64,000 nt of DNA from contig JANRKM010000120.1 of NCBI GenBank assembly GCA_033763475.1, positions 1-64,000 of the forward strand, in the 5' to 3' direction. The stretch is from Kofleriaceae bacterium (GTDB lineage: Bacteria; Myxococcota_A; Polyangia; Haliangiales; Haliangiaceae). Positions 36,492 through 38,207 of this stretch are shown piece after piece. The first letter of the stretch is position 1, and the number at the start of each line of letters is the position of its first letter. The notes beneath the pieces were generated by a model. The model worked only from the letters and a program-made list of their open reading frames with translations, did not search any database and was not told where the DNA came from. Position numbers and translations under genes: made by a program.

Positions 36492-38207
36492 ATGACGCAT
36501 CGACCTCCTCGCTTGCTCCTCGTGCTCGCTGCGTTCGCCGCCGCGACGCTGTCCGCATCGCCCGCCCGGGCTGCGACGTTCACCGTCACCATGCTGGAGG
36601 ATAGCTCCGCTATCGATGGACGTTGCTCGATCCGCGAGGCGTTGGCGAACGCGAACGCGAACGCGAACGTGCGCGACTGTCCGGCTGACGGCGCTTATGG
36701 CGACGACGTGATCATCCTACCGGCGGGCACCATTCATCTACTCGGCTCCGGTGATGACAACAACCTCACCGGAGATCTCGATATCGCCGCAGGCACGGGC
36801 AGCGTGACCCTCCGGGGCGCGGGGCGCGGGGCGACGATTATCGACGCCGGCCTGCGCGATCGCGTTCTCCACGCGGAGAGCCAGGACCAGGGAACGACGC
36901 ACACGATCGAAGGTGTCACCTTCCGGCACGGGGGCTCGGGCGCGCTGCGGCTGCGAACGGCGGTCGTGCTCCGCGACGTGGCGGTCGAGTACAGCGAGAG
37001 CACGGGCGAAGATCCGATCGTCTGGCTCGGGACCGCGGACGTGGAGAACGCCTCGTTCGCGTCCAACACCGCGGAGATGTCCCCGATCGTGTACATGCGG
37101 GGGGACTTGCGCCGCGTTTCGCTGGCGTACAACCGCGCGCGGATATCGAGCAATGCGTCGCCCTACGACAGCTCGGTGCTCTTCCTGCACCGGGGCGCGC
37201 TCGAGAACGTCACCATGATCGGTAACCAGAGCAGCCGGATCATGTACGCCGTGAACCAGGTGACGATCGGACACAGCACGTTCATCGACAACGTTGGCGT
37301 GTTCACGCACAACGTTGGTCCCATCGAGCTCCGCAACAGTATCGTGCGCGGCCAGCCGGTCACCTGCGGCGCGGTCACGTTGCTCGGGCACAACGTGGTG
37401 CCTCCGACGAGCACCTGTGTCTTTGGAAACGACCTGCTGCTCGAGCCGACGATCGATCTCGTCGTCCACGGCGGTTCCCTCCTCGCTCGCCCGAGCGCCG
37501 GCAGCCCCGCGCGCAATCGGGGCACGTGCGAGTCCATGACGATCGACGGGCCCGTCACGGAGGACGGCCGAGGCGGCCCGCGGCCGCGCGGGTGGGCCTG
37601 TGACATCGGTGCGTACGAAGGTGGCGTGCCGCTCGCCCTCATCAGGCCCGAACCCATCGGTGTGCATTGCTCGTCGGGTGGTCTCGCAGCCCTGCGGGGC
37701 GAGGACGCGGATGACGACGGGGTGCTCGACCCCGAGGAGGTCGAAGACATCGACTACGTGTGCAACGGCGACGACGGTTCCGATGGCCAGGACGGCGCCG
37801 ACGGTCAGGACGGCGCCGACGGTCAGGACGGCGCCGACGGTCAGGACGGCGCCGATGGCCAGGACGGCGCCGACGGTGAGGACGGCAAGGACGGCGCCGA
37901 CGGTGAGGACGGCCAAAATGGCCTCGACGGCGAAGACGGCAAGGACGGCGAGGACGGGCAGGACGGCAAGGACGGCGAAGCCGGGCAGAACGGAAGCGCA
38001 GGCTGCTCGGCGGGTGTGAACGGAGATGCAGGCGGCGTGGTCGCGCTGGCCGGTCTGGTCGTCGCATTGCGCCGCCGCCGCCGGCAACGTGCGCGGACCG
38101 GAAGCGCGCATGCGCACGTGCACGTCCCTTTTCGTGTCGGGTGCGGCGAGCCGATTGCGGACGGAGAGGCATGCACCTCCGCATCCTCGCCGCCGTCCTC
38201 CTGGTAG
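36492..38207 (+). CDS. Secreted protein: CSLREA-type N-terminal motif, right-handed beta-helix region, collagen-like G-X-Y repeat, and MYXO-CTERM-like tail
   Basis: Signal peptide MTHRPPRLLLVLAAFAAATLSASPARA. RCSIREALANANANAN. A collagen-like run GDDGSDGQDGADGQDG...GKDGEAGQNG. Then GCSAGVNGDAGGVVALAGLVVALRRRRRQRAR, a Cys + hydrophobic helix + Arg cluster. The ORF continues about 40 codons beyond the Arg cluster and overlaps the next gene. Confidence 0.7.
   Translation: MTHRPPRLLLVLAAFAAATLSASPARAATFTVTMLEDSSAIDGRCSIREALANANANANVRDCPADGAYGDDVIILPAGTIHLLGSGDDNNLTGDLDIAAGTGSVTLRGAGRGATIIDAGLRDRVLHAESQDQGTTHTIEGVTFRHGGSGALRLRTAVVLRDVAVEYSESTGEDPIVWLGTADVENASFASNTAEMSPIVYMRGDLRRVSLAYNRARISSNASPYDSSVLFLHRGALENVTMIGNQSSRIMYAVNQVTIGHSTFIDNVGVFTHNVGPIELRNSIVRGQPVTCGAVTLLGHNVVPPTSTCVFGNDLLLEPTIDLVVHGGSLLARPSAGSPARNRGTCESMTIDGPVTEDGRGGPRPRGWACDIGAYEGGVPLALIRPEPIGVHCSSGGLAALRGEDADDDGVLDPEEVEDIDYVCNGDDGSDGQDGADGQDGADGQDGADGQDGADGQDGADGEDGKDGADGEDGQNGLDGEDGKDGEDGQDGKDGEAGQNGSAGCSAGVNGDAGGVVALAGLVVALRRRRRQRARTGSAHAHVHVPFRVGCGEPIADGEACTSASSPPSSW
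36645..36668 (+). repeat. (GCGAAC)4 hexanucleotide microsatellite inside the CSLREA-motif coding region
   Basis: Direct reading. It encodes ANANANAN. Confidence 0.8.
37768..38005 (+). repeat. 18-bp tandem repeat array (gacggtcaggacggcgcc and variants) encoding the collagen-like G-X-Y tract
   Basis: Direct reading. At least five near-perfect 18-bp units, then degenerate units. Confidence 0.75.

What the first reader, a model, noticed from the sequence alone, without database searches (positions are those of the whole stretch)
36492..38207. Mosaic secreted protein: CSLREA motif + beta-helix + collagen-like 18-bp tandem repeats + MYXO-CTERM-like anchor
The protein combines an N-terminal RCSIREAL motif that embeds a (GCGAAC)4 microsatellite (ANANANAN), a parallel beta-helix-like core, a perfect collagen-type G-X-Y tract encoded by about 13 tandem 18-bp units, and a Cys / hydrophobic helix / RRRRR sorting-signal-like tail.

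Both repeat tracts are slippage-prone, so length could vary between strains as a contingency locus for a surface protein.

The ORF runs about 40 codons past the Arg cluster and into the next gene. This is atypical for a terminal sorting signal.
Basis: partly seen in the sequence, partly recalled or inferred. Interest (0 to 1): 0.5.

Follow-up and report, generated by a model that had tools for sequence, protein, structure and literature searches.

The report
Myxobacterial surface beta-helix protein, overlong tail
This is an ordinary, strain-specific cell-surface protein of a Kofleriaceae myxobacterium, built from known parts (an RbtA-like beta-helix on an acidic Gly-X-Y stalk with a MYXO-CTERM anchor), and its only oddity is 40 extra codons after the sorting signal that look like untranslated spacer DNA read through for want of a stop codon.

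Summary
ORF 36492-38207 (+, 571 aa) encodes these parts in order:
- a signal peptide;
- a CSIREA motif followed by (AN)4, encoded by (GCGAAC)4.2;
- a right-handed beta-helix and a choice-of-anchor Q domain;
- DUF7151;
- 27 uninterrupted Gly-X-Y triplets;
- Cys505, a hydrophobic stretch and RRRRR, then 40 more codons that overlap the next gene by 37 nt.

The HMMs recognise choice-of-anchor Q, MYXO-CTERM (barely), Collagen and DUF7151. The CSLREA model scores below its cutoff, but the motif aligns with family invariants. A family profile hits the Acinetobacter rhombotarget A crystal structure (E 1e-21).

The mosaic is not unique. P0379 has the same colinear architecture and ends one residue after RRRR.

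The source is a Kofleriaceae MAG. The gene lies in a 5.6-kb segment that the closest relatives lack, so copy number could not be compared between strains.

Both repeats are in frame. Only five 18-bp units are near-identical, and (AN)4 is not an expansion. On/off phase variation is therefore not supported.

The 40-codon tail has non-coding-like codon usage, and 63% of random 40-codon windows here lack a stop. It is probably a harmless read-through that is removed with the sorting signal.

Verdict: new member of a known kind; low interest.

The parts
36492..36572 (+). Sec-type signal peptide, aa 1-27 (MTHRPPRLLLVLAAFAAATLSASPARA | ATF)
   Evidence: Read from the sequence: a basic n-region, a hydrophobic core and an A-R-A site. 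It aligns with the N-terminal hydrophobic leaders of homologues, just before the conserved 'AAT-I-V' start of the CSLREA domain. AF2 predicts a helix at aa 7-20. No signal-peptide predictor was available.
36579..36656 (+). CSLREA-type N-terminal motif, aa 30-55 (CSIREA at aa 45-50)
   Evidence: TIGR04214 scores 11 bits, below its cutoff of 25. C45, R48 and A50 are invariant columns in alignment A1 with 15 homologues.
36645..36669 (+). (GCGAAC)4.2 hexanucleotide repeat encoding ANANANAN (aa 52-59)
   Evidence: TRF reports 100% matches. The stretch aligns without an indel to 'AANTDTAV' in homologues, between C45 and C63.
36576..37391 (+). Right-handed parallel beta-helix core, about aa 29-300
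   Evidence: The AF2 model has short beta-strands throughout, with pLDDT of about 80-94 in most 10-residue blocks of aa 31-270. The top Foldseek hits are RbtA 9CDU/9CDV (E 1e-5), then AlgE4, PL6 lyases and pectin methylesterases. Family profile A1 against PDB hits RbtA with E 1.2e-21.
37470..37619 (+). choice-of-anchor Q domain, aa 327-376 (…GSPARNRG…DGRGGPRP…CDIGAYE)
   Evidence: NF041518 scores 40.4 bits against a cutoff of 25. S338, P339, A340, D358, R360, R364, D371, G373, A374 and E376 are invariant in A1.
37641..37763 (+). DUF7151 domain, aa 384-424 (two Cys and a DADDDGVLDPEE loop)
   Evidence: PF23657 scores 40.1 bits against a cutoff of 27.2. More than 2000 proteins carry the DUF7151/Gly-X-Y module.
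37767..38009 (+). Acidic Gly-X-Y tract: 27 triplets, 13.5 units of 18 bp; five near-identical GQDGAD units at 37785-37874
   Evidence: PF01391 scores 46 bits. TRF gives score 179. The unit-by-unit table and composition (0 Pro, net charge -25) are.
37992..38084 (+). MYXO-CTERM sorting signal, aa 501-531: Cys505, hydrophobic A513-L526, R527-R531
   Evidence: TIGR03901 scores 21.3 bits against a cutoff of 20, matching model positions 2-34 of 34. TIGR03382 scores 14.9 against 15.85. The segment aligns to the extreme C-terminus of P0379.
38085..38207 (+). 40-codon extension after the Arg cluster, plus the TAG stop; the last 37 nt overlap the next gene
   Evidence: The extension's codon-usage log-odds is -16.2. 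Real 40-codon gene windows average +21.8 with a 5th percentile of -7.5. All three frames are open over this stretch, and 63% of random 40-codon windows in this DNA lack a stop. No terminator was found, and the RNA fold z-score is -0.1.
38171..39316 (+). Downstream gene: lipoprotein with three MopE-type putative metal-binding motifs (MDX2089141.1)
   Evidence: PF11617 scores 73 bits. The exact sequence is in the public collection. A lipobox LLVAC is read from the sequence.
36378..41974 (.). 5.6-kb strain-variable segment holding the target, the MopE lipoprotein, an HXXEE protein, a Ser/Thr kinase and an ECF sigma factor
   Evidence: blastn of the window against L006 (Ppk1 96% identical) and L007/L008 (92%) shows the segment is absent from both relatives. 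In L006 a DsbA paralogue occupies the site. There are no boundary repeats.

Best explanation
The ORF encodes a Sec-exported cell-surface protein of a Kofleriaceae (Myxococcota) bacterium.

Architecture. An N-terminal beta-helix of the CSLREA / choice-of-anchor Q type is homologous to the beta-helix domain of Acinetobacter rhombotarget A (RbtA). It sits on a DUF7151 domain and an 81-residue, strongly acidic Gly-X-Y spacer. A MYXO-CTERM sorting signal follows.

Inferred route, by analogy with M. xanthus TraA:
1. The signal peptide is removed.
2. The C-terminal helix holds the protein in the inner membrane, with the Arg cluster in the cytoplasm.
3. Cys505 is lipidated.
4. The CPBP-type intramembrane protease myxosortase cuts off the helix and everything after it.
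5. The type II secretion system delivers the lipid-anchored protein to the cell surface.
6. There the stalk projects the beta-helix, probably as an adhesin or ligand binder.

The 40 residues after the Arg cluster are most likely spacer DNA translated because no stop codon follows the signal. This could be stop loss, for example TAA to CAA at 38085, or there may never have been a closer stop. The tail lies in the cytoplasm and would be discarded with the signal, so it is probably neutral.

The repeats reflect in-frame slippage or recombination that can change stalk length. They are not an on/off switch.

Shown: the architecture, the homology, the lineage, the accessory status and the non-coding-like tail. 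Inferred: lipidation, cleavage, surface display, binding function and neutrality of the tail.
For: Domain hits above curated cutoffs: choice_anch_Q, MYXO-CTERM, Collagen and DUF7151.

Family membership of the N-terminal 385 aa:
- There are 44 word-indexed hits at about 30% identity over 90-99% of the query. Many are named 'CSLREA domain-containing' or 'choice-of-anchor Q'.
- The exhaustive search found 3025 representatives at E<=1e-3.
- Motif columns are invariant in alignment A1.

Beta-helix and RbtA homology. RbtA is described as an A. baumannii cell-surface beta-helix protein (PMC12643943). A CSLREA-domain protein is T2SS-dependent in Acinetobacter (bioRxiv 10.1101/2022.02.01.478765).

Same full architecture elsewhere: P0379 is colinear with the target from the signal peptide to RRRR and ends one residue later.

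Lineage: exact matches of neighbouring proteins to a 'MAG: Kofleriaceae bacterium' contig.

Mechanism of MYXO-CTERM sorting: PMC11980579. MrtX still cleaved TraA carrying a FLAG tag after its MYXO-CTERM, so extra cytoplasmic residues are tolerated at least in short form.

Tail as read-through spacer:
- Codon usage falls below the 5th percentile of real gene windows, and no frame looks coding in the 28 non-overlapping codons.
- Nine of the 40 tail codons (CAA, GGA x2, TGC x2, GAG x2, TCG, TGG) are one substitution from a stop; the closest to the Arg cluster are CAA at 38085 and GGA at 38100.
- 63% of random 40-codon windows here are stop-free.
Against: - The sorting signal is not at the extreme C-terminus, which is one of its defining attributes (bioRxiv 10.1101/2023.06.07.544157).
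- The MYXO-CTERM HMM passes by only 1.3 bits, and TIGR03382 just fails.
- No myxosortase gene and no second MYXO-CTERM protein lie within the 64 kb. About 30 ORFs were scanned, not all of them. The rest of the genome could not be searched.
- Only an 8-residue tag has been shown to be tolerated, not a 40-residue tail.
- The function of the beta-helix is unknown even for RbtA.
- The Pro-free, net -25 Gly-X-Y tract may not form a collagen triple helix.
- Stop loss cannot be demonstrated without an orthologue.
Confidence: 0.72

Rival explanations
1. The 40-residue extension disables sorting. The protein would then stay as a bitopic inner-membrane protein with a periplasmic beta-helix and a 45-residue cytoplasmic tail, or it would be on its way to becoming a pseudogene.
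For: [quoted passage not shown] In 19 of 20 comparison proteins, 0-11 residues follow the basic cluster. The gene sits in a variable, apparently dispensable segment next to a truncated gene remnant.
Against: The ORF is intact over 571 codons, with coding-like GC3 and codon usage up to the Arg cluster. All domain motifs are preserved. MrtX recognises the Cys motif and cleaved TraA carrying a C-terminal FLAG tag. Nothing known requires a free C-terminus next to the Arg cluster.
Confidence: 0.12
2. The long tail is an artefact: a base-call or consensus error in the MAG assembly removed the true stop codon just after the Arg cluster.
For: The source is a metagenome-assembled genome. Two codons within six positions of the Arg cluster, CAA and GGA, are one substitution from a stop. 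CAA is the rare Gln codon here: 37 CAA against 280 CAG.
Against: An indel error cannot explain the tail, because all three frames stay open from 38070 to 38204. Substitution errors in an assembled consensus are rare. The public record has exactly one protein accession unaccounted for (MDX2089140) between the flanking genes. That fits a single intact CDS being called there.
Confidence: 0.1
3. Contingency locus: slippage in the 6-bp and 18-bp repeats generates frequent heritable variation in a surface antigen.
For: Five consecutive 18-bp units are 16-18/18 identical, with a 68-nt stretch of perfect period 18. This points to recent slippage or recombination. Gly-X-Y tract lengths differ widely among proteins of the same architecture, from 5 to 29 triplets.
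Against: Both unit sizes are multiples of three, so only length can vary, not expression. The hexamer has just 4.2 copies, and it fills a segment of fixed length between two conserved Cys in the family. No strain comparison is possible, because the gene is absent from the nearest relatives and from all collections searched.
Confidence: 0.15
4. The beta-helix is an enzyme acting on surface or prey polysaccharide (a lyase, epimerase or esterase type) rather than a binding module or adhesin.
For: After RbtA, the structural neighbours are AlgE4/AlgE6 epimerases, PL6 alginate and chondroitin lyases and pectin methylesterases. Many M. xanthus MYXO-CTERM proteins are predicted hydrolases.
Against: Those matches are weak (E 1e-3 to 1e-1, TM 0.2-0.4, 10-14% identity) and reflect the shared fold. 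No catalytic family HMM matched. Relatives carry the chlamydial polymorphic-membrane-protein repeat typical of adhesins (PF02415; POMP_repeat).
Confidence: 0.2

Closest known systems
P0379, an uncharacterised 657-aa protein from a public metagenome assembly (Logan ERR14847248)
   Same: It has the same colinear architecture: signal peptide, CSLREA, beta-helix, choice-of-anchor Q, DUF7151, Gly-X-Y, and Cys/TM/RRRR. Identity is 32-43% in the aligned blocks.
   Different: P0379 has two DUF7151/Gly-X-Y modules, and its triplets contain Pro. It passes the CSLREA HMM (37.9 bits). It ends one residue after RRRR, with no tail.
Rhombotarget A (RbtA) of Acinetobacter baumannii, PDB 9CDV/9CDU
   Same: Both are surface proteins with a CSLREA-type start, a right-handed beta-helix and a C-terminal 'DQRG…CD.GA.E' element. 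RbtA is hit by the family profile at E 1.2e-21 and is the top structural match. Both carry a tripartite C-terminal sorting signal.
   Different: The equivalog model TIGR04212 scores only 12.6 bits against 295, so the target is not an orthologue. RbtA uses GlyGly-CTERM and rhombosortase. It has no DUF7151 or Gly-X-Y stalk. Structural sequence identity is 14%.
MYXO-CTERM proteins of Myxococcus xanthus, e.g. TraA (processed by myxosortase MrtX)
   Same: Both have an N-terminal signal peptide and a C-terminal Cys motif, hydrophobic helix and Arg cluster, in a Myxococcota host. TIGR03901 is above its cutoff (PMC11980579).
   Different: The passenger domains are unrelated. The target has a single Cys where TraA has a CC pair. 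40 residues follow the Arg cluster, against 0-11 in comparison proteins.
DUF7151 / collagen-like repeat proteins (PF23657 + PF01391)
   Same: The C-terminal module (a Cys-bracketed DUF7151, then acidic G-x-D-type triplets, often then a MYXO-CTERM) recurs in more than 2000 proteins, e.g. P0018, P0055 and P0096.
   Different: Most of these proteins have several DUF7151/Gly-X-Y modules and other N-terminal passengers. Here there is one module beneath a choice-of-anchor Q beta-helix.
Streptococcal collagen-like adhesins Scl1/Scl2
   Same: Both are surface-anchored proteins with a globular head on a Gly-X-Y stalk encoded by variable tandem repeats. The HMM similarity is partial (58 bits).
   Different: The score is far below the equivalog cutoffs (325 and 400). 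The target has no Pro, is extremely acidic and has no LPXTG. Triple-helix formation is untested.

Membership tests
MYXO-CTERM sorting domain (TIGR03901) | HMM score at or above the curated cutoff | tested here: met
   21.3 bits against a cutoff of 20, aa 501-531 covering model positions 2-34 of 34. The margin is small. The sister model TIGR03382 scores 14.9 against 15.85, just below its cutoff.
MYXO-CTERM sorting domain (TIGR03901) | Tripartite layout: invariant Cys motif, hydrophobic helix, Arg-rich cluster | tested here: met
   G-C505-S, hydrophobic A513-L526 (14 aa), R527-R531.
MYXO-CTERM sorting domain (TIGR03901) | [quoted passage not shown] | tested here: not met
   40 residues follow the Arg cluster. 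Comparison proteins have 0-11 residues in 19 of 20 cases. The attribute is listed in bioRxiv 10.1101/2023.06.07.544157.
MYXO-CTERM sorting domain (TIGR03901) | N-terminal signal peptide on the same protein | tested here: met
   aa 1-27 were read by eye and aligned with the leaders of homologues. No dedicated predictor was available.
MYXO-CTERM sorting domain (TIGR03901) | Host in Myxococcota, with a myxosortase and many MYXO-CTERM proteins in the genome | tested here: inconclusive
   The Kofleriaceae lineage is met. No second MYXO-CTERM-like tail lies in the 64 kb. No CPBP protease was found among about 30 ORFs scanned.
CSLREA N-terminal domain (TIGR04214) | HMM score at or above the curated cutoff | tested here: not met
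   11 bits against a cutoff of 25, E 0.3, aa 30-55.
CSLREA N-terminal domain (TIGR04214) | C-S-L-R-E-A motif directly after the signal peptide, in a beta-helix protein | tested here: met
   CSIREA is at aa 45-50. C45, R48 and A50 are invariant in A1 with 15 homologues, nine of which JGI names 'CSLREA domain-containing protein'.
choice-of-anchor Q domain (NF041518) | HMM score at or above the curated cutoff | tested here: met
   40.4 bits against a cutoff of 25, aa 327-376.
choice-of-anchor Q domain (NF041518) | Homologues carry different C-terminal anchors or none | tested here: met
   Relatives end in RTX repeats, DUF11, PxKF or TM/basic tails, or have no C-terminal anchor. 13 of 148 have a Cys/TM/basic tail.
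Rhombotarget A (TIGR04212, equivalog) | Equivalog HMM score and a GlyGly-CTERM signal | tested here: not met
   12.6 bits against a cutoff of 295. The C-terminus is of the MYXO-CTERM type. The target is homologous in the beta-helix domain only.
Collagen triple-helix repeat (PF01391) | Uninterrupted Gly-X-Y repeats recognised by the HMM | tested here: met
   46 bits against a cutoff of 27.2. There are 27 uninterrupted triplets.
Collagen triple-helix repeat (PF01391) | Formation of a trimeric triple helix | not testable with these tools
   The composition argues for caution: 0 Pro, Asp at 22 of 27 Y positions, net charge -25. Circular dichroism, SEC-MALS or a multimer prediction would be needed.
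DUF7151 (PF23657) | HMM score at or above the gathering cutoff | tested here: met
   40.1 bits against a cutoff of 27.2, aa 384-424.
Simple-sequence contingency (phase-variable) locus | A repeat whose copy-number change shifts the frame or alters a promoter | tested here: not met
   The units are 6 and 18 bp, both in frame and inside the CDS.
Simple-sequence contingency (phase-variable) locus | Copy number differs between strains or within a population | not testable with these tools
   No orthologue was found in genome, metagenome or protein collections. The nearest relatives lack the gene. Reads are not available.

The most novel reading that the evidence does not exclude
The 40-residue cytoplasmic extension and its 37-nt overlap with the downstream lipoprotein gene are functional. 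One possibility is that they couple translation of the MopE-motif lipoprotein to that of the surface protein. Another is that they delay or gate myxosortase processing, so that a fraction of the protein stays in the inner membrane. Either would be a previously undescribed variant of a tripartite C-terminal sorting signal.
Probability: 0.07. Interest if true: 0.4.

Novelty: new member of a known kind. Interest (0 to 1): 0.15.

Why it matters
It matters little beyond annotation. The gene can be named with some confidence as a choice-of-anchor Q / CSLREA-type beta-helix surface protein with a DUF7151/Gly-X-Y stalk and a MYXO-CTERM signal.

Two points have modest value:
- The family is now tied by sequence profile to the only solved structure of its class (RbtA). 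The same beta-helix passenger therefore appears behind rhombosortase-type, myxosortase-type and other anchors, as the 'choice-of-anchor' idea predicts.
- The overlong tail is a natural test of whether myxosortase needs the sorting signal to be terminal.

The gene is accessory. It lies in a 5.6-kb segment that relatives with 92-96% identical Ppk1 lack, which fits surface-protein turnover between strains.

Tried and rejected
- Orthologue hunts failed. The genome contigs and metagenome-contig scans with the N-terminal 425 aa returned only distant relatives at 26-41% identity, plus one 22-residue fragment at 68%. The exact product is not on record and not in the protein collection. The first full-length homology search was swamped by Gly-X-Y/DUF7151 hits with 9-30% coverage, so I repeated it with the N-terminal part only.
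- I considered that public annotation might treat the ORF as a pseudogene. The accession series MDX2089139 / gap / MDX2089141 leaves exactly one protein for this interval, so that idea was dropped.
- A terminator or structured RNA in the tail region: none was found, and the fold z-score is -0.10.
- A frameshift error as the cause of the tail: rejected, because all three frames are open there.
- Mobile-element borders for the 5.6-kb segment: the longest shared words are only 8-9 nt.
- Myxosortase in the window: no CPBP-type hit among the ORFs scanned. This is not informative for the whole genome.
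Full report
**What is there**

The + strand carries an ORF from ATG 36492 to TAG 38205-38207, 571 aa. Its GC3 is 0.83, typical of coding sequence in this roughly 68% GC DNA. The longer TTG start at 36414 would only add 26 residues in front of a good signal peptide, so I use the ATG.

- RCSIREAL at aa 44-51.
- ANANANAN at aa 52-59, encoded by a perfect (GCGAAC)4.2 at 36645-36669.
- 27 uninterrupted Gly-X-Y triplets at aa 426-506 (nt 37767-38009), which is 13.5 units of 18 bp. 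TRF reports period 18, 11.8 copies, 78% matches, score 179, the strongest tandem repeat in the window.
- Cys505, hydrophobic A513-L526 and R527-R531.
- 40 further codons, ending 37 nt inside the next gene.

There are two qualifications. Only five 18-bp units (GQDGAD x5, 37785-37874) are near-identical, and the rest match at 11-14 of 18 bases. The tract also has no proline, Asp at 22 of 27 Y positions and net charge -25. It is collagen-like in periodicity but not in composition.

**Domain assignment**

| Model | Score (bits) | Cutoff | Residues |
|---|---|---|---|
| choice-of-anchor Q (NF041518) | 40.4 | 25 | 327-376 |
| MYXO-CTERM (TIGR03901) | 21.3 | 20 | 501-531, ending at the last Arg |
| CSLREA_Nterm (TIGR04214) | 11 | 25 | 30-55 |
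| Collagen (PF01391) | 46 | 27.2 | best stretch 426-480 |
| DUF7151 (PF23657) | 40.1 | 27.2 | 384-424 |
| Beta_helix (PF13229) | E 0.063 | below cutoff | 215-289 |

The sub-threshold CSLREA result is outweighed by homology. The N-terminal 385 aa find 44 proteins at about 30% identity over 90-99% of their length, many named 'CSLREA domain-containing protein' or 'choice-of-anchor Q domain-containing protein'. In a 16-sequence alignment, C45, R48, A50, the GDLD motif and the C-terminal SPA…D.R…R…D.GA.E columns are invariant.

The same alignment shows that ANANANAN occupies exactly the columns of 'AANTDTAV' in relatives, between two conserved cysteines. The hexamer repeat is therefore not an expansion.

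**Fold and nearest characterised relative**

An AF2 model built on that alignment is strand-rich, with pLDDT of about 80-94 in most 10-residue blocks of aa 31-270.
- The best PDB matches are the 2025 crystal structures of Acinetobacter baumannii rhombotarget A (9CDU/9CDV). Weak hits to other right-handed beta-helices follow: AlgE4, PL6 lyases and pectin methylesterases.
- A profile of the alignment also finds RbtA by sequence alone, at E 1.2e-21, including the terminal 'DQRG…CD.GA.E' element.
- RbtA is described as a cell-surface beta-helix protein. [quoted passage not shown]
- A CSLREA-domain protein is among the T2SS-dependent secreted proteins of Acinetobacter.
- The target is not an RbtA orthologue: TIGR04212 scores 12.6 bits against 295.

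**Is the mosaic unusual?**

No. The exhaustive search found 3025 representatives at E<=1e-3, with a best identity of 38%. Thirteen of the best 148 have Cys/TM/basic tails, and several also have DUF7151 and long Gly-X-Y tracts.

P0379 (657 aa) is colinear with the target from the signal peptide through CSLREA, beta-helix, choice-of-anchor Q, DUF7151 and Gly-X-Y to 'GGCASAAPGLFGLIGLSLFFRRRRA'. It stops one residue after the Arg cluster.

The DUF7151/Gly-X-Y/MYXO-CTERM module alone recurs in more than 2000 proteins.

**Source and genomic setting**

Exact look-ups place the window on an 81,976-bp contig of a 'MAG: Kofleriaceae bacterium' (Myxococcota).
- The flanking proteins are MDX2089137 (PepSY_TM), 138 (DUF3108), 139 (a 135-aa hypothetical), 141 (MopE-motif lipoprotein), 142 (HXXEE), 143 (Ser/Thr kinase) and 144 (ECF sigma factor). 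Exactly one accession, MDX2089140, is left for the target interval.
- The target's own product is not in the collections I could search.
- Contigs from the closest relatives (Ppk1 96% and 92% identical) keep the flanking synteny POR, DUF3108, DsbA, Ppk1 but lack window 36378-41974. That segment holds the target, the lipoprotein, HXXEE, the kinase and the sigma factor. In L006 a DsbA paralogue sits there instead. There are no boundary repeats.
- The gene is therefore accessory and strain-specific. This explains why the genome and metagenome scans found only distant relatives, and why repeat copy number cannot be compared.

**The tail**

The 40 residues after R531 are atypical. [quoted passage not shown] In an unbiased scan of 312 retrieved proteins, 19 of the 20 with a Cys/TM/basic motif have 0-11 residues after the basic cluster.

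Several results suggest the tail is translated spacer DNA:
- Its codon-usage log-odds is -16.2. Real 40-codon windows from this contig's genes average +21.8, with a 5th percentile of -7.5.
- In the 28 codons that do not overlap the next gene, no frame looks coding.
- All three frames are open from 38070 to 38204, so an indel error cannot be the cause.
- 63% of random 40-codon windows in this DNA have no stop.
- The first codon after the Arg cluster is the rare CAA, one substitution from TAA.
- There is no terminator and no unusual RNA structure.

My reading is that the tail is spacer sequence translated for lack of a stop, perhaps after stop loss.

**Likely mechanism**

This is inferred from M. 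xanthus (PMC11980579).
1. The protein is exported by Sec.
2. The C-terminal helix retains it in the inner membrane.
3. The invariant Cys is lipidated.
4. Myxosortase cleaves off the helix and everything after it.
5. The T2SS delivers the protein to the cell surface.

The cytoplasmic tail would be discarded with the helix. MrtX still cleaved TraA carrying a FLAG tag after its signal, so extra residues are tolerated at least when short.

The acidic stalk would hold the beta-helix away from the membrane. Relatives carry chlamydial Pmp-type repeats, which hints at an adhesin-like role. That role is unproven.

**Contingency idea**

Units of 6 and 18 bp are in frame, so they cannot switch expression. 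Stalk-length variation is plausible, given five near-identical units and 5-29 triplets among proteins of like architecture. It is untested.

**Verdict**

The contingency interpretation is unsupported. The thing itself is a new member of a known kind, and its one mildly unusual feature is most simply explained as read-through.

Noticed in passing
window 285-5740: An 832-aa ORF (285-2783, -) carries the Major Vault Protein shoulder domain (PF11978, 79 bits) and the Vault_3 repeat (PF17795, 39.6 bits). It lies directly beside RtcB (2796-4061, -) and is divergent from the sigma-54 activator RtcR (4055-5740, +). A bacterial MVP homologue in an RtcR/RtcB RNA-repair locus recalls the Ro60/Y-RNA-rtcBA arrangement (from my own knowledge). 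One literature search found nothing on it.
   Followed up: partly
window 29815-34800: A second roughly 5-kb segment is absent between POR and DUF3108 in relatives L006, L007 and L008. It holds a TonB-dependent receptor, a 402-aa unknown protein and a PepSY_TM protein. L007/L008 carry a PIN/PhdYeFM toxin-antitoxin pair at that position instead.
   Followed up: partly
window 35770-36174 (-): The 135-aa hypothetical protein MDX2089139 is a truncated copy of a 193-aa gene in L006. The two sequences agree up to '…RKNPGL' and then diverge, just upstream of the target gene and about 0.5 kb from the left edge of the variable segment.
   Followed up: partly
window 56748-58049 (+) and L006 18191-20431: There is a second RtcB paralogue in the window (428 bits). 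In relative L006 an RtcB is followed by the RNA 3'-phosphate cyclase RtcA.
   Followed up: no
window 17150-20733 (+): A gene pair of the PSCyt2/PSCyt3 (DUF1549/DUF1588) and DUF1501 type, as seen in Planctomycetes. It lies in the lowest-GC part of the window (0.64-0.66), and neither ORF appears in the list, which required GC3 above 0.78 and GC3-GC2 above 0.25.
   Followed up: no
window 49228-49286 and 54601-54665: Two other in-ORF simple repeats: (CGG)~20 at 49228-49286, and a GGCGGT/24-bp Gly-rich repeat at the start of the ABC-transporter ORF 54559-56532.
   Followed up: no
proteins P0069 and P0087: DUF7151/collagen-like proteins are also annotated in marine archaeal MAGs (Poseidoniaceae, Poseidonia sp.). 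The stalk module is therefore not confined to Myxococcota or to bacteria.
   Followed up: no
protein P0368: This is the only other retrieved protein with a long stretch (67 aa) after a Cys/TM/basic motif. It may be a second case of a non-terminal sorting-signal-like segment, or a fusion.
   Followed up: no
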